From a virus: DNA of 42,976 nucleotides. Made by a program: the position numbers and the translations under genes. Within the stretch, counting starts at the first letter, position 1. Each line of letters starts with the position of its first letter. The stretch lies in the IMG/VR virus record IMGVR_UViG_3300045988_151420, positions 1 through 42,976 of that record; one strand, 5' to 3'. Positions 2,597-35,132 of the stretch are shown piece after piece. Under the pieces are notes generated by a model, which ran no database searches, was not told the DNA's origin, and saw only the letters and a list, made by a program, of their open reading frames with translations.

Positions 2597-2704
2597 TGAT
2601 ACCTCTCCGAAATCATGTGTAGCGAAAATGGTTCACGCCAAGCAAACCGTTTTTCGTGTTTGTCTTGGCGTGAACCATTTTACACTATCCGATAGTAACA
2701 CGGC

Positions 2705-3426: not shown

Positions 3427-3482
3427 AATGGGTTGTCCTCAAATTGTTTTATAAAACTGAATGGGTTGTGTTTGTTTTGGAT

Positions 3483-3533
3483 CTTCCCCGCTATTCCGCG
3501 ACAACCCATCCGAAACACGAAATAGCGGGGAAG
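3483..3533 (-). terminator. Stem-loop after the major tail protein gene.
   Basis: 13-bp arms cttccccgctatt (3483-3495) and aatagcggggaag (3521-3533), 10 nt past the stop at 3543. Confidence 0.6.
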
Positions 3534-3542
3534 AATCATATA

Positions 3543-5105: not shown

Positions 5106-5590
5106 TACGGTTCCTGTCCGCTGATCGCGTTAATGTCTTCGATCAACTGATCCGTAGCGGACCGCACGTCATAGTCCTGTAGGAGGTCTACTTCGAATGC
5201 GCCGCCAGCCCCGCCGAGTGCGTCTTTTTCCTCGCGTTTCAGGTATAGGCCGCCTTCAGGATTCTGATACGTGAACTGATCGGAGAACGGGCCGGTCGTG
5301 TGCGATTCCGATGCGATAATCCCGTGAGGCTCGGAATAAATTCCGCCGCCACTGTCGGTGACACCGCCGATAGCATCACCGCCTTGCATTGCGCGACGCA
5401 CCACAGCACACGCCACTCGCTTTCGCGTACGAGGGGTAGCGGATTCCCAACGGGGGCATTTCGACACAATGAGATCGGTTGCGTCGGCGAGGAGTACGTC
5501 AGCGCGAATGCGCTCATTGCCCGAGAGCGCCCGCCACCGAGCCTCCAAATCCTCGACCGTGGCGAACGGAATAATATCCTCAGGAATCAC
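5105..5590 (-). CDS. Head-tail connector (gp6-like).
   Basis: 161-aa ORF, ...ATVEDLEARWRALSGNERIRADVLLADATDLI..., with a GTGA overlap with the upstream gene. Confidence 0.65.
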   Translation of the reverse strand: MIPEDIIPFATVEDLEARWRALSGNERIRADVLLADATDLIVSKCPRWESATPRTRKRVACAVVRRAMQGGDAIGGVTDSGGGIYSEPHGIIASESHTTGPFSDQFTYQNPEGGLYLKREEKDALGGAGGAFEVDLLQDYDVRSATDQLIEDINAISGQEP

Positions 5591-8191: not shown

Positions 8192-9808
8192 TCAGCCTAT
8201 TGGTGTTTTGGTGACGCCGGGCAGCTTAATGTTGCGCTTAACCCTGTTCCTTGTATTGGGCGCGTTATTAAGGTTCAGGTTATTGTCATTACCGTTGCCG
8301 CCATTGTTATTGACGGCGTTATCGTCACCATTGTTGTTGGCCGCGTCACCATTATCGGCGTTCTCGCCGTTCTCGCCGTTCTCACCCACGGTGTTCTCAT
8401 TGTTCGTGGCGGCGAGAGCACGATCAAGCAAAGACACCGCATTCTTCTTGCGGTTCTCAGCATTAATGTCTGCGAGATCATCCTCGGTGAGCCCGGCACG
8501 CCGCATGAGAGTCTGCGACTCCTGCAATGACGGGAACGCGGACACCATTTTGACCGCGAAATCGGCGGCAGACGACGGCGAGGAATAGCGGGCGGGGGTC
8601 CACTTCACCGAGGTCTTCCACGACTCCTGCGGCGGCTCGTCAAGCTTGTCCCGGACCATAATAATGTTCTGCAGCGTACGCCGCAACGGGGCCGTGAAAA
8701 TACGCCACTGATACTCAGCTTCGTCCGCGAGCGCCGCCTCAGCCGCCTGCATCGCCTCGGCCGAGGCGGGGTTCTCCGCGAATACTCCAATGGCGGACTG
8801 AGGAATGTTTGTGGCCGCGCACAAATTCTGCGCCAGCTGACGGTACATTTCCAGGTGAGGGCTCATGGTCATTTGTGAGAATTGCCCAATCGACGGAATG
8901 TCGCCGTTCTCGTTCGGCTCAAGCACCTGTACTCGGGCCATGATTGCGGACCACCTGTCCTGGCCGGCAAAATCTGCTCTTTCTGCGCCGAGCACGTACC
9001 GTTGCGGTGAGGAGAAGAATTCGGCGGAGGTTTCTGCGCGGACCATTGTCCTCACTGCCGCGTCCGTGAGGTACCTTACTTCGCGGGTGATTCGTGAATG
9101 CCCCAGAGGACGGTTCAGTTGCGGGTCGTAGCAGAGTGCTTCGACGAAAATGCGGTTGGGTGTGTCTCCTAGTTTTTCGGCTTTCCATCCGCTGCCGTTT
9201 TCTTTGGCGTCGATTCGCCAAATGGCGGTGGGGGTGTGCATGATGGCGCCGGCCGGCTGCCCGTATTTGTCGGTCTGATCAATTGTGAGGGCTGCCTCGA
9301 TTATGCGACGCCTAGTGTCCCATAGTGCTGCGGACCATTCCGCGTCACGGGCTTGCACGACGACGGGCGGTTCGCCGATGGTTTCGTCACCGCGTGTCAC
9401 TGTGATTAGCGAGAAAGAGTGCTTGTAGGCGGACGTTATCGCCTGTGCGAGATCGAGGTCGTAGTTGTTTGCGGAGAGTATTTCGTTTGCTTCGAAAGCG
9501 TCGGGAGCGCCGTTAAGGGAGTAGCCTTCGAACACGTGCCGGCGGGCGAGCATGGTGACGACTTTCTGAGGCCACCCAAGCGCGGCTTTGGTGCGCGTCA
9601 TTTGCGGTGGAATACTGATACCGAGGTCCTGGAAAGCGCGGTGGCCGTCATAGTAGACGGAGAGCAGCTTGTTTTTGTTCGAGTGCTGCTGCCATTTCTG
9701 CCACAGTTGCAGGAATGTTACCTTGTCTTCGTTGGGGAGTCCTGAAATGCTGGTCGGTGGCGGCGTGGCGTTAACGAGTCGTCCGTCGTCAGGATAAATT
9801 TCAGTCAT
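8192..9808 (-). CDS. Portal protein.
   Basis: 538-aa ORF overlapping the large terminase stop by 4 nt. The C-terminal tail is rich in Asn/Gly/Asp. Confidence 0.85.
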   Translation of the reverse strand: MTEIYPDDGRLVNATPPPTSISGLPNEDKVTFLQLWQKWQQHSNKNKLLSVYYDGHRAFQDLGISIPPQMTRTKAALGWPQKVVTMLARRHVFEGYSLNGAPDAFEANEILSANNYDLDLAQAITSAYKHSFSLITVTRGDETIGEPPVVVQARDAEWSAALWDTRRRIIEAALTIDQTDKYGQPAGAIMHTPTAIWRIDAKENGSGWKAEKLGDTPNRIFVEALCYDPQLNRPLGHSRITREVRYLTDAAVRTMVRAETSAEFFSSPQRYVLGAERADFAGQDRWSAIMARVQVLEPNENGDIPSIGQFSQMTMSPHLEMYRQLAQNLCAATNIPQSAIGVFAENPASAEAMQAAEAALADEAEYQWRIFTAPLRRTLQNIIMVRDKLDEPPQESWKTSVKWTPARYSSPSSAADFAVKMVSAFPSLQESQTLMRRAGLTEDDLADINAENRKKNAVSLLDRALAATNNENTVGENGENGENADNGDAANNNGDDNAVNNNGGNGNDNNLNLNNAPNTRNRVKRNIKLPGVTKTPIG

Positions 9809-11298
9809 AGGAACAGTACTCCGCCGCCACGATCATTTCTACTATTGGCGTTTTCGATTTTATCATAAGGCTTGTAACGGGGGCGTCTTTTTGTTGTGCG
9901 TGCGGCCCACATTGCGAGCGTGCACGCTTCTAGGCCGGCTACTGTGGCGCCGGGCGGGGCTTGTAGCGCCCATCCTCCGGACGTTCCGATTGGGCGCGGC
10001 GTCGCAGAAGCGGCCTCAGTCCGCAATTCCATGTCGTCCAGGTGCGTGATTGTGTTTTCGCGTAGTGAGGCGTCTAGCATGCTGTAAGCGTCTATGATTT
10101 GCGTGATCGTGGGCGTGATGATGACTTGCGGGCGTACTCCGATCGAACGGAGTCTTTCGATTGTGTCTCCGGCACCGTATTTTCCGTCTACGATGATTTG
10201 CGCCCACCTATCTTTTGTGTCCGCAATGTAGTCGATGATCCATTGTGTGCCCTCGCTCATGCGGCGTACGCCTTGGTGTGTGCAGAGTTCAACATGGGTT
10301 GGCGTGTTTGCCTTGTGTCCCGCTCTGGCTAGGGCGCAGGTTGATCCGTCGGGTGCGAATCGGATTGCGGCGCACCATCGCATACCACTGGGAGTGTTTT
10401 CTGGCCGTATTGTGGCGGTGTTCCAGGCGACGGGGTCGATTGCGAGCCTGTCGTTGGCGCGGTCCCATATTCCGAGGCCTTCACGTCGGAATGATTCTTC
10501 GCCGAGCTGCCGGCGCATTCTTAGAATGGCGGATTCGGGTGTGCGGCGCGGGTATGATGGGTTTGCTTTTTCCCATTGTTTCCTGTCGTCGCTGTTGGCG
10601 TTATAGTCGGCGGCCAACTCCAAATAGAGGCCGTCTTTTATTTCGCCTTGTAGTGCGAGGTTGCGGAATTCGCTGAACGCTTCTGATGGGTCTTTTGGTT
10701 TTGGTGGTGTCCCGATTTTGATGATGAGCGGATCAGGGGCGGTGTTTGTGGCGGGGATCATGTCGTCTAGTGCGGCTGCACCTAGAATCTGGGCTTCGTC
10801 GAAGAGGATCATGTCTACGCCGTGGAATCCGCGTCCGAATCCGCCTTCGCGGGCTCCGAAGAGGATTCGTGATCCATTGTTGAAGAGGATGGCTTGTTGC
10901 CCGTTTGCTTGTCGTATTTTGTTTACGTAGGGGGCGATTTCGGGGATTTGTGCCATTCCTTTCATGTCGTTGAATGTTTCGTCTGCGGTGCGTGTTCTGT
11001 GTGCGGTCCAGAGGACGAAGTAGTTGGGGTGGATGGTGGCGAGTGCGAATGTGAGGCCGCCGATTGTGTATGTTTTGCCGACCTGACGAGGAATGGATGC
11101 TTGGATTCCGTCGATGCTGGCTGCGTAGTGGCCGTCGTTTCTTTTTGCGAGGATTGCTTTGAGCCAGTCTTGTTGCCATATGTCGAGAGGGTATTGCATT
11201 TCTTGGAGGCGGCGTTGGACGGGCGGCCAGGCGGTGTGTGTGATGTTTTCGGGGAGGGTGAGGTGGGCGGCGATTTCGGATAGGTGTTTTTCGCTCAT
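9805..11298 (-). CDS. terL: Terminase large subunit.
   Basis: 497 aa with a Walker A-like IPRQVGKT and a Walker B-like MILFDEAQ; it lies upstream of the portal gene. Confidence 0.9.
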   Translation of the reverse strand: MSEKHLSEIAAHLTLPENITHTAWPPVQRRLQEMQYPLDIWQQDWLKAILAKRNDGHYAASIDGIQASIPRQVGKTYTIGGLTFALATIHPNYFVLWTAHRTRTADETFNDMKGMAQIPEIAPYVNKIRQANGQQAILFNNGSRILFGAREGGFGRGFHGVDMILFDEAQILGAAALDDMIPATNTAPDPLIIKIGTPPKPKDPSEAFSEFRNLALQGEIKDGLYLELAADYNANSDDRKQWEKANPSYPRRTPESAILRMRRQLGEESFRREGLGIWDRANDRLAIDPVAWNTATIRPENTPSGMRWCAAIRFAPDGSTCALARAGHKANTPTHVELCTHQGVRRMSEGTQWIIDYIADTKDRWAQIIVDGKYGAGDTIERLRSIGVRPQVIITPTITQIIDAYSMLDASLRENTITHLDDMELRTEAASATPRPIGTSGGWALQAPPGATVAGLEACTLAMWAARTTKRRPRYKPYDKIENANSRNDRGGGVLFL

Positions 11299-11299
11299 T

Positions 11300-11581
11300 T
11301 TAGATGCCGTCCCAGGTTTGTGTTTCGTTTGGAATGTTGGCGGTGTGTGTGGTGGTGTTTTCGTTTTGTGTGGTGGCGAGTTGGTCTGTGATTTGTATGA
11401 GTTGTGCGGTGAGTTTTGTGAGTGCGGTGTCGCCTGTTCTGGGGTCGTCTATGACGGTGGCGATTTTGTGTGCGAGTGCTTGGCGGATGAGGGTTGGGTT
11501 GCCGGTGTTTGTGGCGTCTGTGATGGGTGCGGGGGAGTTGGGTTCGTATACGGTGATTGTGGTGTTTGTGTGGGTTGTCAT
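11300..11581 (-). CDS. Hypothetical protein; candidate small terminase by position only.
   Basis: 93-aa ORF ending 2 nt before terL. It has a helical central part and Thr/Asn-rich ends. Confidence 0.5.
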   Translation of the reverse strand: MTTHTNTTITVYEPNSPAPITDATNTGNPTLIRQALAHKIATVIDDPRTGDTALTKLTAQLIQITDQLATTQNENTTTHTANIPNETQTWDGI

Positions 11582-11588
11582 GTCTTCT

Positions 11589-11594
11589 ATTATA
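11589..11594 (-). promoter_or_regulatory. Perfect TATAAT -10 hexamer 7 nt upstream of the ATG at 11581 (leaderless-type arrangement).
   Basis: Minus strand reads ccacaTATAATagaagacATG. No Shine-Dalgarno sequence is present. Confidence 0.4.
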
Positions 11595-11624
11595 TGTGGT
11601 GGCGTGTGTCACGTCCGGCAAGAG

Positions 11625-11750
11625 TTTTCCACAGGGTTATCCACAAGTCTAGGGTTTTCCACAGGGTTTTCCACAGGTTGGAGAGTTTTCCACATGATGG
11701 CGCTCACATTGTGACGTGGGTTACTGGAGTTATCCACAGGGTTTTCCACA
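11625..11750 (+). promoter_or_regulatory. Cluster of seven DnaA-box-like 9-mers, TT(A/T)TCCACA, all in the same orientation.
   Basis: TTTTCCACA at 11625, 11655, 11667, 11686 and 11742. TTATCCACA at 11637 and 11730. Three pairs are spaced 12 bp apart. Confidence 0.7.
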
Positions 11751-11885
11751 AGCGGGGAGGGATGGGCAGACCTTCGGGGTGTTCGCGGCCGGATGGGGGA
11801 GGGGGAGTGGCCCCCATCACACATTTGCTGTGGTGTGTGTCTTGTTTTGTTGTGTTCCCTGTCTTGTTTTGTGACGTGGGTCCTA

Positions 11886-11921
11886 CTTTAAGGGATCCCT
11901 TACTCCTTTAAGGGATCCCTT
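11886..11921. promoter_or_regulatory. Two direct copies of CTTTAAGGGATCCCTT, 20 bp apart, each with a palindromic AAGGGATCCCTT core.
   Basis: Copies at 11886-11901 and 11906-11921. The first extends to the 14-bp palindrome TAAGGGATCCCTTA. Confidence 0.6.
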
Positions 11922-11949
11922 GCGTTCGTCTTGTTTTGTTGCCATGGTT

Positions 11950-12245
11950 TTTTCGAACGCCATTGTTGTTTCATGCCTTTGAATGTTTTTGCATGTTTTT
12001 GTAACATTTCTTTTGTTTTTATGTATTTTTGTGCGTTTGTGCGTTGTGTTGCCTTTGCGGCATGCGTTGGCACCGTGCATGGCGCATGGTATTGGTATGC
12101 ATGTCATGCATCACATCGTCATCGTCGTGTTCATCATCATGTTGATCATGTTCATCATGATGATGATTGATCGTCATGATGTTCATCGTTCATTGTTCGT
12201 TGATCATTCATTGAACACTGATTATCGTTGATCATGTTGATCGTG
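11950..12245. other. AT/T-rich tract with five TTGATC(A/G)T repeats and a 12-bp TCATCATGATGA palindrome.
   Basis: Counted G+C: 10 of 50 in 11981-12030 and 22 of 60 in 12121-12180. Repeats at 12142, 12167, 12200, 12228 and 12237. Palindrome at 12152-12163. Confidence 0.6.
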
Positions 12246-12324
12246 ATTGTTTGTTGGTTGTGTGAACGTGAACGGTGTGAGGTGAGGTGAGTGGGTGGTG
12301 TCCGTCTCTCTTCAGTGTGTGGTG

Positions 12325-13333
12325 TGTGGAATGGCGGTGGGGTGTGCTGCTAGTCCACCTCAGTCCGTGATGCGGCCAGTGCTCTGCCCATCCTGGTGCA
12401 GTACTCGTCAGTGCTGCGGTCGTGTCGTGTGCTATTCGTTGCCAGGCGTTGTGGTGTGTGGGTGGTGAGTGTGTCTCTGTGCTGTTCGTGCAGTGGGGTA
12501 TCCTCTGTCCGCTTCCCCCTCGTCGTGGTGGTGGGTGGGGGCATTGTGGATGGTGGGGTGGCATGACGAGGTGGGGTGGCATTGCGATGGAAGGGCGGTG
12601 GTGCAGGTGCGGGTCCTCCGTCTAGTGTTGGTGTCCCCCTTGTTTAGTATCGGCGTCCCCCTTGTTGTTTGTGTGGTGGCCGTGTTGAAGGGCGGGGCGT
12701 GTGGTGCGTGGGGGTCCCCGCGTTCGGATTGGGTCCGTCCTCTTCGCATTGTTCCTGCCCTTCTTCTGTTTTGTGTTGCCATGTCTGTTGCAGGGGGCGG
12801 AGGAAGTGTGGTGGTGTGCGGCGGTGTGTTGTCTACTATCGCACAGTGTTGTGCGTGTGGTGTGTGTTACGAATGGCGATGGTGTGTGGGTGTGGTGGGA
12901 CTGGTCCCGCTATTCTCTTCTGTCTTTGTGTTTGCTGTCACAGTGTTGTTGGTTTAGTGGTGTGTTTTTGTGTCAGGGTTGTGTCATTGTGGAATGGCGG
13001 TGATGGTTGTGTTGGGTAGAAGAGCGGTGGTGTCTACTGTCTACGCACCGTTTGTGTTGCGGTGTGCGTTGTAGTGGTGTGCGTTGTGTTACGTCATGTT
13101 GTGTTGTGTTGTGGAATGGCGGTGGGGTGTTGTGTTGTCTTTCTTGTCCGCTTCTCTCTTTTTCTCTTTCTCTTTGTGTTGGTGTTCGGGGTAGTGCGCG
13201 CGCAGCTTTGCGAGCACGCGCGTTATCCCCGAACACCATTGTGTTCTCTTGTTGTTCTGTCTTCTCTTCTCTTCTCTTCTAGCTCCGCTCTTTCATCACC
13301 CGCTCTTCTTCTGTTATTGAATGGCGGTGGTGT
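12325..13333 (+). repeat. Dispersed array of about 8 copies of (T)GGAA(T/G)GGCGGTGG, all in the same orientation.
   Basis: Copies near 12325, 12587, 12685, 12869, 12988, 13018, 13109 and 13316. Confidence 0.65.
13181..13237. repeat. Long hairpin, copy A of a three-member family.
   Basis: 11-bp outer stem ggtgttcgggg/ccccgaacacc around the core tagtgcgcgcgcagctttgcgagcacgc. Confidence 0.65.
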
Positions 13334-13336
13334 GAT

Positions 13337-13681
13337 TTACCATGTATCACTGTGTTGTGTTGGCATGACAGCTACGGGTAGCCTGTCTCTTTCCCCTTCG
13401 TTTTTCCGGTAGTGGCGTGCTCTTCCTTTGCCTCCTCGTCCGTTGCCTCGTCTGCTGTTGCATTTGGCGCATAATACTCGCCCGTTGTCTGGGTGGTTGG
13501 TTCCGCCTAACGAGGCGGGGATTATGTGGTCTGCCTCAGCGCTGTTGGGTTTGCGTTCGCCGTTGTTTGTGTATTGGAGTTTGACTCCGCATGCTGGGCA
13601 GTGTGTGATGCCGAGCTGTTGTGCTCTGGCTAGTACTTGTTTTCTGAATTGTTTGTGTTCTCGGATGCTTGTTCTGCTCAT
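13337..13681 (-). CDS. HNH endonuclease.
   Basis: 114 aa with HCPACG...EADHIIPASLGGTNHPDNGRVLCAKCNSRRG; GAAGGA lies before the ATG. Confidence 0.9.
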   Translation of the reverse strand: MSRTSIREHKQFRKQVLARAQQLGITHCPACGVKLQYTNNGERKPNSAEADHIIPASLGGTNHPDNGRVLCAKCNSRRGNGRGGKGRARHYRKNEGERDRLPVAVMPTQHSDTW

Positions 13682-13725
13682 TGCTATTCCTTCTCTTTAC
13701 TCTTTTCTCTTCTCTTTCGTGTTGG

Positions 13726-13781
13726 TGTTAGGTGGTGGCGCGTCGCAGCGTCAGCGAGACGAGCGCCTCCACCGTCTAACA
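13726..13781. repeat. Long hairpin, copy C (diverged core gcgcagcgtcagcgag).
   Basis: Stems tgtta/taaca, ggtgg/ccacc and ggcgc/gcgcc. It shares the upstream GTGTTGGTGTT and pyrimidine-tract context with copy A. Confidence 0.55.
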
Positions 13782-13849
13782 CTACTCTCTACTCTCTGCT
13801 CTCTGCTCTCTGCCCCCCGCCTTTCTTCTCTTGTTTTGTTTTGTGTGGT

Positions 13850-13909
13850 GGCGTGTGTTGTGTAGTGCGCGCGCAGCTTTGCGAGCACGCACGTAACACA
13901 ACGCACGCC
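13850..13909. repeat. Long hairpin, copy B.
   Basis: The 28-nt core at 13863-13890 is identical to 13192-13219. A different 13-bp outer stem (13850-13862 / 13897-13909) still pairs. Confidence 0.65.
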
Positions 13910-14539
13910 CTGATGTTTTGGTTTGTCTACTTAATGCAGTGTGTGTTTCTTCTGCCACACATCAGTTCATTGCGTCCACCACACACTGTTCGTTATTAAC
14001 GGCAACAGTATTCAACATTGAACACTACCGCCCTTAATTACATCACAACACATATTTCCTAATTAAACACCGTCTAGGAGTGTTAGACAGTGTCTAATTC
14101 TAGTACTCTTTTAAGAGTGTAGGTCGGGCCCAACACAGTGGCGAGCCCGTCGAAAACACCAGGCGACGCTGACGCTCGCTTGCGTCGCTAGGGCTCCTCA
14201 GCGGCTGCGCCGCCGATCGTCTTCGACGATTCGTCTACTCGAGTGTAGCATACGGGACCAAAGTCACCACAACAAACACTGCCAACAAACAATCACAAAC
14301 GAGGACTAAACGTTGTAATCGCGCGAAAACATGTCGCCGCAACCCTTGCTGAAACCGCAGAAAGTGTGACGACACACACCAACATTGTAGTAACACAAAC
14401 GGGTGTTTTCATCCTAGAACGCCGGTTGCTAGCAAACAACCCACATGCGTAGAAAGTAAACGGAAGGTGAACAAGGTGAACGGAAGGTTAGCGGAAACTG
14501 TGAAAGATCAGCACCATGATGGCCGACACCACACGCACC

Positions 14540-14568
14540 CATCACACACCGCCCTTCCACCACCTGAG
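14540..14568 (+). repeat. Left copy of the direct repeat CATCAC-N3-CCGCCCTTCCACC-N1-CCTGAG.
   Basis: Aligned by eye with 15456-15485. Confidence 0.6.
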
Positions 14569-14575
14569 ACGCACT

Positions 14576-14608
14576 GAGGCCCCACCCCCTCATCGGAAGT
14601 GGGGCCTC
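14576..14608. terminator. Stem-loop downstream of the 110-aa leftward gene.
   Basis: 10-bp stem gaggccccac/gtggggcctc. Confidence 0.55.
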
Positions 14609-14638
14609 GTCATCCTCGGGCCGGTCGGGTCAGTAGGG

Positions 14639-14971
14639 TCAGGAATTCCGGTACAGCAGAGCGCGCGAGCCGGTATCCGCCTCCTCGTTGACGACGGGGA
14701 CGAGGGCGACCTCGAGGTTGGCGTGAGCGAGATAGGCGTCCCGGGCGAGGCGGGCGATTCGAGACCAAAGGTCCGTGTCGGCCATCGCGTACTCGTAGGC
14801 GTCATCCCATCCATTAGGCACCTCAAGCGGCTCGATCGAGTCGATGCCGCAGTCGTCGCCCGTCGTGTAGAGGGTCCAAGGGTCACCAGTGCGGGGAGCG
14901 TGGACCCGGTAGATGACGCCGAACTCGATGGTCTCGAGGACCGGGTCCTCGCTGCGGTGAATGGTGCTCAT
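14639..14971 (-). CDS. Hypothetical acidic protein.
   Basis: 110-aa ORF with AGGAGGAAAAGAGAAG immediately before the ATG. Local GC is high (39 of 60 in 14641-14700). Confidence 0.75.
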   Translation of the reverse strand: MSTIHRSEDPVLETIEFGVIYRVHAPRTGDPWTLYTTGDDCGIDSIEPLEVPNGWDDAYEYAMADTDLWSRIARLARDAYLAHANLEVALVPVVNEEADTGSRALLYRNS

Positions 14972-26732: not shown

Positions 26733-26751
26733 CGCACATGGTCGTATGATT

Positions 26752-26791
26752 TGAATAGCGGGGGCAACATGATTGTTGCCCCCGCTATTCA
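26752..26791 (+). terminator. Strong stem-loop terminator.
   Basis: 18-bp perfect stem tgaatagcgggggcaaca/tgttgcccccgctattca with a 4-nt loop. Confidence 0.7.
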
Positions 26792-26818
26792 ACCAAAAAG
26801 AGAAGAGAGAAAACACGA

Positions 26819-29068: not shown

Positions 29069-29125
29069 CGTATATCTAATGTACTCTATTGTGACTGCTT
29101 TGGCAGGGCTGCAATAGGAATTATA

Positions 29126-29170
29126 TAACATTCCCCGCCTAACAATGATAATGTCAAGCGGGGAATGTTA
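29126..29170 (-). terminator. Intercistronic stem-loop whose arms match the hairpin at 35076-35119.
   Basis: Arms taacattccccgc/gcggggaatgtta (13 bp). Confidence 0.55.
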
Positions 29171-29177
29171 TGTTTAG

Positions 29178-35055: not shown

Positions 35056-35075
35056 TCTCTCGCGCCGGGCATGAA

Positions 35076-35119
35076 AACATTCCCCGCTCACCGTGAAAGT
35101 GCGGCGAGCGGGGAATGTT
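35076..35119. terminator. Bidirectional stem-loop between convergent operons.
   Basis: 14-bp arms aacattccccgctc/gagcggggaatgtt. Confidence 0.7.
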
Positions 35120-35132
35120 TCACGTGAAACAT
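35115..35132. promoter_or_regulatory. Third copy of the palindrome: ATGTTTCACGTGAAACAT.
   Basis: Perfect 18-mer. It overlaps the 3' arm of the hairpin and touches the stop codon of the gene at 35132. Confidence 0.7.

What the first reader, a model, noticed from the sequence alone, without database searches (positions are those of the whole stretch)
13181..13909. Three paralogous long hairpins with a conserved apex and covarying stems around the HNH gene
- **Copy A (13181-13237) and copy B (13850-13909)** share an identical 28-nt core, TAGTGCGCGCGCAGCTTTGCGAGCACGC (13192-13219 = 13863-13890). Their outer stems have different sequences but both pair: 11 bp ggtgttcgggg/ccccgaacacc in A, and 13 bp ggcgtgtgttgtg/cacaacgcacgcc in B.
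- **Copy C (13726-13781)** has a related apex (GCGCAGC-N4-GCGAG) and yet another set of pairing arms.
- A and C are both preceded by GTGTTGGTGTT and by pyrimidine tracts.
- Several pairs are G-T on the plus strand, so the fold is better as plus-sense RNA.

Structure kept while sequence changes argues for function. Candidates are a small RNA, an attenuator, or a protein- or terminase-recognition cruciform. The HNH gene sits between copies A and C, as if it was inserted into an array with roughly 125-bp spacing. A possible inverted relative lies at 14163-14188.
Basis: seen in the sequence. Interest (0 to 1): 0.65.

Follow-up and report, generated by a model that had tools for sequence, protein, structure and literature searches.

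The report
Conserved hairpins bracketing a phage HNH gene
Three related 60-base hairpins around the HNH nuclease gene of an abundant, uncultured human oral phage are real, strongly conserved and keep their pairing through compensating mutations, so they are functional signals, but sequence alone does not show what they do.

Summary
Hairpins A (13180-13238), C (13725-13782) and B (13850-13909) fold strongly. A and B share an exact 28-nt core. All three sit at the same places in about 45 related ~43-kb phage genomes from human oral metagenomes.

- **Conservation:** the hairpins are 91-100% identical, while their flanks are 30-60% identical. They are better conserved than the HNH coding sequence.
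- **Covariation:** in B's lower stem, 6 of 14 pairs show compensatory double changes and 99.3% of cells pair (0 of 500 shuffles reach this).
- **Concerted evolution:** the A and B cores carry the same apical-loop variant in 30 of 43 genomes, against 9 expected.
- **No known family:** there is no Rfam match, no copy in cultured phages or bacterial genomes, and no sign of mobility.

HNH with an upstream hairpin is ancestral in more distant Actinomyces/Schaalia phages, no tandem array exists, and every clade genome has HNH. The 14163-14190 hairpin looks like an ordinary terminator.

My best reading (about 40%) is that these are cis-acting RNA stem-loops in the 5' and 3' untranslated parts of the HNH transcript, serving as boundary, stability, processing or factor-binding sites. 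The main rival is that the G+T-rich plus strand is the folded strand, as antisense RNA or single-stranded DNA. Wobble intermediates favour this: 14 pair positions against 2.

The parts
13180..13238 (.). Hairpin A. It has a 12-bp lower stem, an asymmetric internal loop (TA / GTTAT), an irregular upper stem and an apical loop. It lies 99 nt downstream of the HNH stop codon, in the sense of the gene.
   Evidence: As RNA it folds at -40.7 kcal/mol on either strand, z = -6 to -7. As DNA it folds at -25.6 kcal/mol. It is 91-96% identical across 45 genomes while its flanks are 39-63% identical. The stems do not vary and the apical loop YYT does. The covariance model built from B scores it at 62 bits.
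13192..13219 (+). The 28-nt core of A, identical to the core of B. In most relatives the identity extends to about 33 nt, because they carry A where the window has G at 13222.
   Evidence: Exact repeat. Variants among relatives.
13337..13681 (-). HNH endonuclease gene (114 aa), bracketed by the hairpins.
   Evidence: Pfam HNH_5 at 1.7e-10 and HNH at 5.6e-10. It is 85-95% identical in 45 relatives.
13725..13782 (.). Hairpin C, a paralogue with different arms and a related apex (CGCAGC-N4-GCGAG). It lies 44 nt upstream of the HNH start codon.
   Evidence: Folds at -32.8 kcal/mol on plus and -30.3 on minus. It is 99-100% identical across relatives, loop included. It shares a 5' flank with A (D20). 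The B model matches it only marginally, at 16.5 bits and E = 0.55.
13850..13909 (.). Hairpin B. It has a 14-bp lower stem that covaries among orthologues, and the same upper stem and core as A.
   Evidence: Folds at -39.3 kcal/mol on plus and -38.9 on minus. Six of 14 lower-stem pairs have changes on both sides, 99.3% of cells pair, and 0 of 500 shuffles reach this. RNAalifold predicts the same structure independently.
13863..13890 (+). The 28-nt core of B, identical to the core of A.
   Evidence: The apical-loop variants of A and B match within a genome in 30 of 43 genomes, against 9.1 expected.
13239..13300 (.). One of the low-complexity flanks, pyrimidine-rich on plus and GA-rich on minus. 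Similar tracts lie at about 13138-13179, 13684-13722 and 13783-13849. They vary by insertions and deletions and contain almost no A on the plus strand.
   Evidence: short CT repeats. A is 0-3% and T is 53-65% on both sides of each hairpin; low conservation.

Best explanation
The three hairpins are cis-acting RNA stem-loops in the untranslated parts of the HNH endonuclease transcript (minus sense in the window). B and C lie in the 5' leader. A lies about 100 nt past the stop codon.

**Proposed mechanism**
- They mark and protect the ends of this small transcription unit at the right end of the phage genome.
- They would do this by blocking exonucleases, by acting as processing sites for a double-strand-specific RNase such as RNase III, by acting as non-canonical terminators or attenuators, or by a combination of these.
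- The invariant irregular upper stem probably also binds a specific phage or host factor.

**Shown**
- The hairpins exist.
- They are under strong purifying selection.
- Pairing in B is maintained by compensatory change.
- Any HNH mRNA very probably contains C, and probably B.

**Inferred**
- That the RNA form is the functional one.
- That the minus sense is the functional sense.
- The specific boundary, stability or processing role.
For: - **Folding:** stable folds with z = -3.6 to -7.
- **Conservation:** the hairpins are islands of 91-100% identity. The flanks are 30-60% identical and HNH is about 80-95% identical.
- **Covariation in B**.
- **Position:** C ends 44 nt before the HNH ATG, and those 44 nt are poorly conserved. 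A promoter there is unlikely, so transcripts that reach HNH must carry C.
- **Outgroups:** a hairpin sits about 25 nt upstream of the HNH ribosome-binding site. In the A. bowdenii prophage the region upstream of HNH is a divergent intergenic region, so that hairpin must lie in the HNH 5' UTR.
- **HNH as a separate unit:** terS has its own conserved TATAAT 7 nt upstream of its ATG. This suggests the packaging operon starts there. HNH would then be a separate unit ending near A.
- **Architecture:** a lower stem, an internal loop and an upper stem give about 22-24 bp. From my own knowledge, this resembles the phage T7 RNase III sites, which are also paralogous.
- **A distinct class:** other intergenic hairpins in this genome are canonical terminators with A/T tracts.
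Against: - **Wobble intermediates favour the plus strand.** In B, 39 cells are G.U on plus and 1 is A.C. In C, 6 cells are G.U and 1 is A.C. That is 14 pair positions against 2. The background transition bias is only about 1.5-2 to 1.
- **No U tract follows any hairpin on the minus strand**, so they are not canonical terminators in that sense.
- **The conservation is more than generic stability or processing hairpins usually need.** C (including its loop) and the upper stem of A and B are almost invariant.
- **No promoter for HNH was identified.**
- **No expression data are available.**
Confidence: 0.4

Rival explanations
1. The hairpins work in plus-sense RNA, which is antisense to HNH. They would end or structure G+U-rich transcripts that run inward from the right genome end (the end expected to be injected first) or antisense across HNH. 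A would stop transcripts before HNH. C and B would stop antisense transcripts after it.
For: - Wobble asymmetry favours the plus strand: 14 pair positions against 2, with a background bias of 1.5-2 to 1.
- On plus, B is followed by a U-rich tail such as CTGATGTTTTGG in most relatives.
- A promoter-like TTGAAT-17-TAACAT sits at 11979-12007 on plus, in a highly conserved block.
- The physical right end is at about 11780, so plus-sense transcription runs inward.
Against: - T-richness is the same upstream and downstream of the hairpins, so no specific U tail exists.
- The A-poor plus strand leaves almost no TANNNT -10 elements near the hairpins.
- The only candidate promoter is 1.2 kb away and scores below the scan threshold.
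- In outgroups with all genes on one strand there is no obvious reason for antisense transcription, and wobble evidence there is mixed.
Confidence: 0.2
2. The hairpins work as DNA. One form is single-stranded hairpins on the G+T-rich plus strand when it is exposed during replication, acting as priming, pausing or recombination signals. This would be comparable to single-strand initiation sites or mitochondrial OriL. The other form is extruded cruciforms or inverted-repeat sites bound by a packaging or replication protein such as TerS, HNH or the primase-helicase.
For: - The same plus-strand wobble asymmetry applies.
- The plus strand is extremely G+T rich, with GC skew +0.32 to +0.37 and AT skew about -0.5. 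This composition is expected of a strand that is often single-stranded.
- The hairpins are stable with DNA parameters, at -19 to -26 kcal/mol.
- The invariant core suggests sequence-specific protein recognition.
- In one outgroup genome (L251) the conserved loop is inverted between its arms, which is a DNA-level flip.
- Nearby lie a cluster of DnaA-box-like repeats and the cos site.
- The phage encodes primase-helicase-like proteins (DUF3987, PHROG helicase/primase) and an exonuclease plus a Sak4-like annealing protein.
Against: - A dsDNA phage with its own primase-helicase is not known to need hairpin priming signals.
- The hairpins are 1.4-2.1 kb from cos and from the DnaA boxes.
- A dsDNA-binding palindrome would not show covarying arms.
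- No HUH Rep protein or integrase-type partner turned up among the roughly 30 ORFs I scanned. The window was not annotated in full.
Confidence: 0.2
3. The hairpins have no dedicated function. They are palindromic repeats kept in register by intra-strand template switching and homogenised by gene conversion, or a selfish MITE- or REP-like element.
For: - A and B evolve in concert.
- The phage has recombination genes.
- The flanks are slippage-prone low-complexity DNA.
- In the outgroups whole stems are replaced while the flanks stay the same.
Against: - The hairpins are far more conserved than their flanks and than the neighbouring coding sequence.
- Each genome has exactly two syntenic A/B-type copies and none elsewhere.
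- No copies occur in bacterial genomes or other phages. All pattern hits there lack the stems and lie in high-GC coding DNA.
- C is a single, unique copy, yet it is almost invariant.
Confidence: 0.08
4. They are processive antitermination sites of the lambda nut or HK022 put kind. RNA hairpins with one shared core would load a factor onto RNA polymerase, letting it cross the long, untranslated, C-rich and G-poor RNA between HNH and terS.
For: - Two copies with an identical, co-evolving core recall nutL and nutR.
- The minus-sense RNA of the 1.75-kb HNH-terS spacer is untranslated, C-rich and G-poor, so it should be a good Rho substrate.
- A conserved promoter-like site lies upstream at 14412-14384, followed by a terminator-like hairpin.
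Against: - The same strand problem applies as for the best explanation.
- terS appears to have its own promoter, so read-through may not be needed.
- The outgroups have the upstream hairpin but only a 100-200-nt HNH-terS spacer.
- No N- or Q-like protein was identified.
Confidence: 0.1

Closest known systems
RNase III processing sites of phage T7 mRNAs (R0.3, R1.1 and others). This comparison rests on my own knowledge.
   Same: - Several paralogous hairpins within one phage.
- About two helical turns of stem, interrupted by a conserved internal loop.
- They lie between genes.
- The lower stems differ between copies.
   Different: - No cleavage data exist here.
- Conservation of the upper stem is much stricter.
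- Only three copies exist, all around one gene.
- Substitution patterns hint at the strand opposite to the gene.
Intrinsic (Rho-independent) terminators, including the 'I-shaped' hairpins without a U tail described for Actinobacteria. This comparison rests on my own knowledge.
   Same: - G+C-rich intergenic hairpins.
- A lies just downstream of a gene.
- Actinobacterial 3' ends often map to hairpins that lack U tracts.
   Different: - No U tract on the gene's strand.
- Stems are longer and interrupted.
- B and C are upstream of the gene.
- The same genome has canonical terminators of a different design.
Lambda nutL/nutR boxB and HK022 putL/putR antitermination RNAs. This comparison rests on my own knowledge.
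   Same: Two copies within one genome share an identical hairpin core, and the hairpins lie in untranslated transcribed regions.
   Different: - No boxA-like partner element or N-like protein was identified.
- Size and shape differ.
- One copy lies downstream of the gene.
- Function was not tested.
Strand-specific DNA hairpin signals: plasmid single-strand origins, phage G4 and M13 complementary-strand origins, mitochondrial OriL and integron attC. This comparison rests on my own knowledge.
   Same: - Folding is possibly strand-specific.
- Structure is conserved while the arms vary.
- Conserved core positions.
- The folded strand is G+T rich.
   Different: - The genome is a dsDNA cos phage.
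- No Rep, IntI or similar partner was found.
- Strand specificity is only suggested, at roughly p = 0.03.
Hairpin upstream of HNH in related Actinomyces/Schaalia phages and prophages, found here (loci L237-L255 and L284).
   Same: - Same position, immediately upstream of the HNH gene next to cos and terS.
- A GA-rich tract lies before it.
- The stems are fully complementary but highly variable.
- The loop contains CAGC-type repeats (GCACAGCAGC, against CGCAGCGTCAGCG in C).
   Different: - The sequences cannot be aligned. The B model scores them at only 12-20 bits.
- Those phages have no copy downstream of HNH.
- The loop is conserved and the stems vary. In A and B it is the upper stem that is conserved.

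Membership tests
Rfam families (any) | Match to a curated covariance model at its gathering score | tested here: not met
   No match at gathering score in the whole window. With the E-value threshold, 11500-14700 gives only chance-level microRNA and snoRNA hits of 16-23 bits against gathering scores of 39-95.
Intrinsic terminator | G+C-rich hairpin | tested here: met
Intrinsic terminator | Run of U starting within 0-2 nt of the stem on the transcribed strand | tested here: not met
   The scan does not call A, B or C as terminators. Its only hit there is a 6-bp stem at 13231-13246 that overlaps A's 3' arm. The minus-strand tails are A-rich. On plus, T is 53-59% downstream and 57-65% upstream, so there is no specific tail.
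Intrinsic terminator | Position at the 3' end of a transcription unit | tested here: inconclusive
   A lies 99 nt after the HNH stop codon. B and C lie upstream of HNH. The transcription units are not known.
RNase III processing site (T7 type) | About 20 bp or more of double helix interrupted by an internal loop | tested here: met
   Lower stem of 12-14 bp, an internal loop, and an upper stem of about 10 bp.
RNase III processing site (T7 type) | Cleavage by RNase III at the internal loop | not testable with these tools
   This needs in vitro cleavage or mapping of RNA ends.
MITE, REP or other mobile palindromic element | Many dispersed copies, insertion polymorphism, and presence in host genomes | tested here: not met
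   Each clade genome has exactly two syntenic A/B copies plus C. Pattern hits in 185,579 species genomes and in other viral contigs lack the stems and lie in high-GC coding DNA.
Lambda nut / HK022 put antitermination RNA | Hairpin in the leader downstream of a promoter, with a partner element (boxA) and/or a cognate factor | tested here: inconclusive
   Two copies share a core, and a promoter-like site lies upstream at 14412-14384. No boxA-like element or N/Q-like protein was found among the ORFs scanned.
Single-stranded-DNA hairpin signal (sso, ssi, attC, OriL type) | Folding is selected on one DNA strand only | tested here: inconclusive
   G.T intermediates on plus at 14 pair positions, against A.C at 2. 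Background bias is 1.5-2 to 1. My own conservative binomial estimate is about p = 0.03. Outgroup data are mixed.
Single-stranded-DNA hairpin signal (sso, ssi, attC, OriL type) | Cognate Rep, integrase or primase acting on the hairpin | not tested
   Primase-helicase-like genes are present. No HUH Rep or integrase was seen among the ORFs scanned. The window was not annotated in full.
Protein-coding sequence | Conserved reading frame across copies and relatives | tested here: not met
   The shared core is read in different frames in the ORFs that cover A and B. The flanks are rich in insertions and deletions. A neighbouring plus-strand ORF has stop codons in relatives.

The most novel reading that the evidence does not exclude
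The hairpins are strand-specific DNA or RNA signals of the G+T-rich strand, within a 2.8-kb almost gene-free terminal region. That region is expected to enter the cell first, and it also holds the cos site, a cluster of DnaA-box-like repeats and a repeated Chi-like G/T motif. The hairpins could be hairpin-form initiation, priming or stop signals that act while this terminal DNA is single-stranded or first transcribed. This would be a control region of a kind not described for actinobacterial cos phages.
Probability: 0.12. Interest if true: 0.8.

Novelty: new member of a known kind. Interest (0 to 1): 0.45.

Why it matters
The phage is very common in the human mouth: its terminase cluster alone has 1,765 member sequences. 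It has no cultured relative. Its right-terminal 2.8 kb is nearly gene-free and compositionally extreme, and the three hairpins are among its best-conserved elements.

They are a clean candidate for a new structured nucleic-acid family, supported by real covariation. They also give a concrete handle for asking how an HNH-dependent cos packaging module is expressed or regulated in Actinomyces-type phages. If the plus-strand reading is right, they would point to an unusual single-strand or antisense signal at the end of the genome that enters first.

Tried and rejected
- **Known RNA family:** rejected. Rfam gives nothing at gathering score or at the E-value threshold.
- **Relatives among cultured phages:** none by megablast or blastn.
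- **Host-derived or mobile repeat:** rejected. All 24 bacterial-genome hits to the core pattern, and all viral hits outside the clade, lack the flanking stems and look like Ala/Arg-rich coding DNA.
- **HNH inserted into a hairpin array:** rejected (and outgroups).
- **Coding explanation:** rejected, because the frames differ and the flanks carry insertions and deletions.
- **Energy as a way to tell the strands apart:** uninformative.
- **Canonical terminator:** no U tail.
- **Promoter immediately upstream of the hairpins:** none. The flanks are unconserved low-complexity DNA.
- **Sequence homology with the outgroup hairpins:** only 12-20 bits with the covariance model.
- **GTGTTAGAC half-site shared by C's 3' arm and a palindrome at 14080-14099:** two exact copies only, and not significantly enriched.
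- **Literature searches** for comparable elements in actinophages found nothing useful.
- **A variant genome (L052)** with a different G+C-rich hairpin at B's place lies at a contig end and could not be interpreted.
Full report
**What the window is**

The 42,976-bp window is a closed circular assembly: its first 30 nt equal its last 30 nt. It is a tailed phage.

- *Genes identified:* large terminase at 9805-11298(-), SPP1-type portal at 8192-9808(-), HNH endonuclease at 13337-13681(-), and DUF3987 with primase/helicase-like proteins, an exonuclease and a Sak4-like annealing protein on the plus strand.
- *No close cultured relative.* Megablast against 50,697 phage records finds nothing. The terminase is about 50% identical to those of Arthrobacter, Rothia and Propionibacterium phages.
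- *Likely host.* In the large protein collection the next relatives (58-63% identity) include prophage terminases of Actinomyces and Schaalia. The terminase's own 90% cluster has 1,765 members.
- *Source.* A near-identical contig comes from a human oral metagenome.

**The observation**

| Hairpin | RNA fold, plus / minus (kcal/mol) | z-score range |
|---|---|---|
| A | -40.7 / -40.7 | -6.0 to -7.3 |
| C | -32.8 / -30.3 | -3.6 to -4.1 |
| B | -39.3 / -38.9 | -3.7 to -4.6 |

DNA parameters give -19 to -26 kcal/mol.

- The 28-nt core is an exact two-copy repeat, with none expected by chance.
- A shares its 5' flank and the start of its stem with C (80% over 30 nt, family D20). It shares its core with B. 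A therefore looks like a mosaic of the other two.
- C's apex is related only loosely. It reads TCGCAGC-N4-GCGAG, against GCGCAGC-N3-GCGAG in A and B. A covariance model built from B finds it only marginally (16.5 bits, E = 0.55).

**Comparative evidence within the clade**

Forty-five related genomes of about 42-43 kb in IMG/VR carry HNH at 85-95% identity. They come from several human samples, including HMP samples. All three hairpins are at the same places in these genomes.

*Conservation.* In an alignment of 45 sequences:
- the hairpins are 91-100% identical to the window;
- the 50-100 nt on either side are 32-63% identical;
- the HNH coding sequence is about 78-98% identical.

*Variation in each hairpin.*
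- C is essentially invariant, loop included.
- In A and B the upper stem and internal loop are invariant, apart from one compensatory C-G to U-A change in one genome.
- The two 3' positions of the apical tetraloop vary freely, with 7-8 loop variants per copy.
- B's lower stem varies.

*Covariation in B.* Across 42 distinct B orthologues:
- 6 of 14 lower-stem pairs show changes on both sides;
- 99.3% of cells form standard pairs;
- no shuffle out of 500 reaches the observed values for four of the five measures (10 of 500 do for further pair types);
- sliding the 3' partner by 1-3 columns collapses pairing to 14-68%.

RNAalifold predicts the same structure unaided. Pairing is therefore under selection.

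**Which strand folds**

Energy does not decide. Across the B orthologues the means are -39.6 kcal/mol on plus and -40.2 on minus. Substitution patterns do give a hint.

- In B, single-sided changes give G.U on the plus strand in 39 cells (10 pair positions). They give A.C, which would be G.U on minus, in 1 cell.
- In C the counts are 6 cells at 4 positions against 1 cell.
- The plus strand is G+T rich, so I measured the background. In the neighbouring non-coding DNA, transitions towards G or T are only about 1.5-2 times as frequent per site as the reverse.
- Fourteen positions against 2 is then unlikely. My own conservative binomial estimate is about 0.03.
- The events are few, and the outgroup hairpins give mixed signals.

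I take this as moderate evidence that the plus strand, antisense to HNH, is the folded one. It is not proof.

**Concerted evolution of A and B**

The apical-loop variant is the same in A and B of one genome in 30 of 43 genomes. Permutation gives 9.1 expected, and none of 10,000 permutations reaches 30. So the two direct-repeat cores are homogenised, or selected to stay identical. The phage's exonuclease and Sak4-like annealing protein make gene conversion plausible. Part of the striking 28-33-nt identity is therefore a product of recombination, not only of selection.

**What the hairpins are not**

- *A known RNA family.* No Rfam match.
- *Present in cultured phages.* No match.
- *A mobile or host-derived element.*
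  - Each clade genome has exactly two A/B-type copies, always syntenic.
  - Core-pattern hits in bacterial genomes and unrelated viral contigs lack any outer stem and sit in high-GC coding DNA.
- *Coding.* The shared core is read in different frames in the ORFs that cover A and B. The flanks carry insertions and deletions. A neighbouring plus-strand ORF has stop codons in relatives.
- *Canonical terminators.*
  - No U run follows them on the minus strand.
  - On plus, T-richness is equal on both sides.
  - The genome's other intergenic hairpins (26751, 29125, 35075, 2625 and others) have the classical A-tract/stem/T-tract design.

**The 'insertion into an array' idea**

- No tandem array is detectable.
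- All genomes with both A and B have them 630-690 bp apart, so HNH is always present.
- In phages with about 60% terminase identity, and in an Actinomyces bowdenii prophage, HNH lies 100-200 nt upstream of terS. One or two hairpins lie directly upstream of HNH, preceded by a GA-rich tract.
- The hairpin nearest HNH in those phages has a conserved loop (GCACAGCAGC or GCACAGACGA) and fully complementary but wholesale-different stems. In one genome the loop is inverted.

So HNH with an upstream hairpin is ancestral. This clade has added a 1.5-kb non-coding spacer between HNH and cos, and the downstream copy A.

**Context**

*Physical genome ends.*
- Seven independent contigs start at exactly window 11768, reading TGCCCATCC... 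on the minus strand. In one of them a sequencing adapter is fused at that base.
- Other contigs end at 11773-11796, two of them at 11780.
- The outgroups have a similar CCCCTCCCCC motif between HNH and terS.
- This places cos at about 11768-11780, possibly with an 11-nt overhang.

*Position of the hairpins.* They lie 1.4-2.1 kb from the right end of the virion DNA. That end is packaged last and, by analogy with lambda, injected first (this step is inference).

*The terminal 2.8 kb (about 11780-14640).* It holds only HNH. Its plus strand has GC skew +0.32 to +0.37 and AT skew about -0.5 up to about 13950, where the asymmetry flips.

*terS promoter.* terS has a conserved TATAAT 7 nt before its ATG, which is the design of a leaderless transcript. 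The packaging operon therefore probably has its own promoter, and HNH is a separate small unit. C ends 44 nt before the HNH ATG, in unconserved sequence, so an HNH transcript must carry C and probably B. A follows the stop codon by 99 nt.

**Mechanism**

The simplest reading, at about 40%, is that these are RNA stem-loops of the HNH transcript's untranslated ends. They would define and protect its boundaries, through processing by a double-strand RNase, blocking of exonucleases, or non-canonical termination or attenuation. They would probably also bind a specific factor, given the invariant irregular upper stem.

The architecture of lower stem, internal loop and upper stem spans about two helical turns. 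From my own knowledge it resembles the paralogous RNase III sites of T7.

| Explanation | Confidence |
|---|---|
| RNA stem-loops of the HNH transcript (best) | about 40% |
| Plus-sense RNA elements ending inward or antisense transcripts | about 20% |
| DNA-level hairpins or cruciforms on the G+T-rich strand, or protein sites | about 20% |
| nut/put-like antitermination sites | about 10% |
| Functionless palindromes kept by template switching and gene conversion | about 8% |

The two plus-strand rivals are the main alternatives, because the wobble evidence points that way. None of these can be separated without transcript-end mapping or biochemistry.

**Verdict**

This is a real, conserved, covarying family of structured elements, confined to one abundant uncultured oral phage clade and not yet catalogued. 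It is a new member of the broad class of phage cis-acting stem-loops. Its function, and even its functional strand, remain open. The insertion story is not.

Noticed in passing
window 11760-11815: Probable cos site and physical genome ends. Seven related contigs start exactly at 11768, one of them with a TruSeq adapter fused there. Others end at 11773-11796, two of them at 11780, which suggests an overhang of about 11 nt (11769-11779, GACCTTCGGGG on plus). A CCCCTCCCCC motif here is shared with the HNH-terS spacer of more distant relatives.
   Followed up: partly
window 11621-11753: A cluster of about seven DnaA-box-like 9-mers (TTATCCACA or TTTTCCACA) in 28-30-bp repeats. It lies between cos and terS and is highly conserved among relatives. 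It could be an origin or a regulatory array.
   Followed up: no
window 11589-11594 (minus strand): A conserved, perfect TATAAT lies 7 nt upstream of the terS ATG (11581). This layout suggests a leaderless transcript, so the packaging operon may have its own promoter.
   Followed up: partly
window 11000-14500: Extreme strand asymmetry in about 2.8 kb of almost gene-free DNA. From 12001 to 13000 the plus strand is roughly G 36%, T 36%, C 18% and A 11%. The asymmetry flips near 13950, and 14000-14500 is A+C rich on plus. Because A is scarce, long spurious ORFs appear on the plus strand, and a public gene caller annotated one of them.
   Followed up: partly
window 12329, 12590, 12871, 12992, 13114, 13319 (+); 14547 (-); 28639 (+): The motif GGAATGGCGGTG is strongly enriched: 13 matches with at most 1 mismatch, against 1.2 expected. 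Most copies are on the G+T-rich strand of the non-coding region, 120-280 bp apart. It loosely resembles a Chi-type G/T-rich motif. It could be a protein-binding site.
   Followed up: no
window 14100-14420 (minus strand): A conserved promoter-like site, ATGAAA-17-TACAAT, lies at 14412-14384, with the palindrome GTTGCTAGCAAC just upstream. It is followed by about 225 nt that are 96-100% conserved and contain several hairpins. This stretch ends in a terminator-like hairpin at 14190-14163 plus TGGTGTTTTCG. It could be a small RNA or an attenuated leader, comparable to lambda pR'-tR'.
   Followed up: partly
window 14060-14125: A conserved AT-rich block with the perfect palindromes TTAGACAnTGTCTAA (14084-14098) and ACTCTTAAAAGAGT. 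The half-site GTGTTAGAC also forms the 3' arm of hairpin C (13774-13782). These may be operator sites.
   Followed up: partly
window 11888-11921 and 12119-12245: Two copies of the palindrome AAGGGATCCCTT lie 19 bp apart, next to cos. Nearby is a conserved block rich in TGATCA, ATCATG and GATC repeats and in overlapping palindromes.
   Followed up: no
window 2625-2681, 3482-3534, 26751-26792, 29125-29171, 35075-35120: A second class of long, perfect intergenic hairpins, several of which share ATTCCCCGC / GCGGGGAAT. A/T tracts are built into their stems. They look like the phage's canonical bidirectional terminators.
   Followed up: no
loci L237-L255 (about 5200-5255) and L284 (4180-4220): In more distant Actinomyces/Schaalia phages, the hairpin just upstream of HNH has a conserved loop (GCACAGCAGC) and at least three unrelated but fully complementary stem sequences between almost identical flanks. 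In L251 the loop is inverted. This suggests very fast stem turnover, or flipping, at the DNA level.
   Followed up: partly
locus L052 1-100: One clade contig has a different G+C-rich imperfect hairpin plus a GGAATGGCG motif where B should be. It lies at the contig end, so this may be an insertion, a replacement or an assembly artefact.
   Followed up: partly
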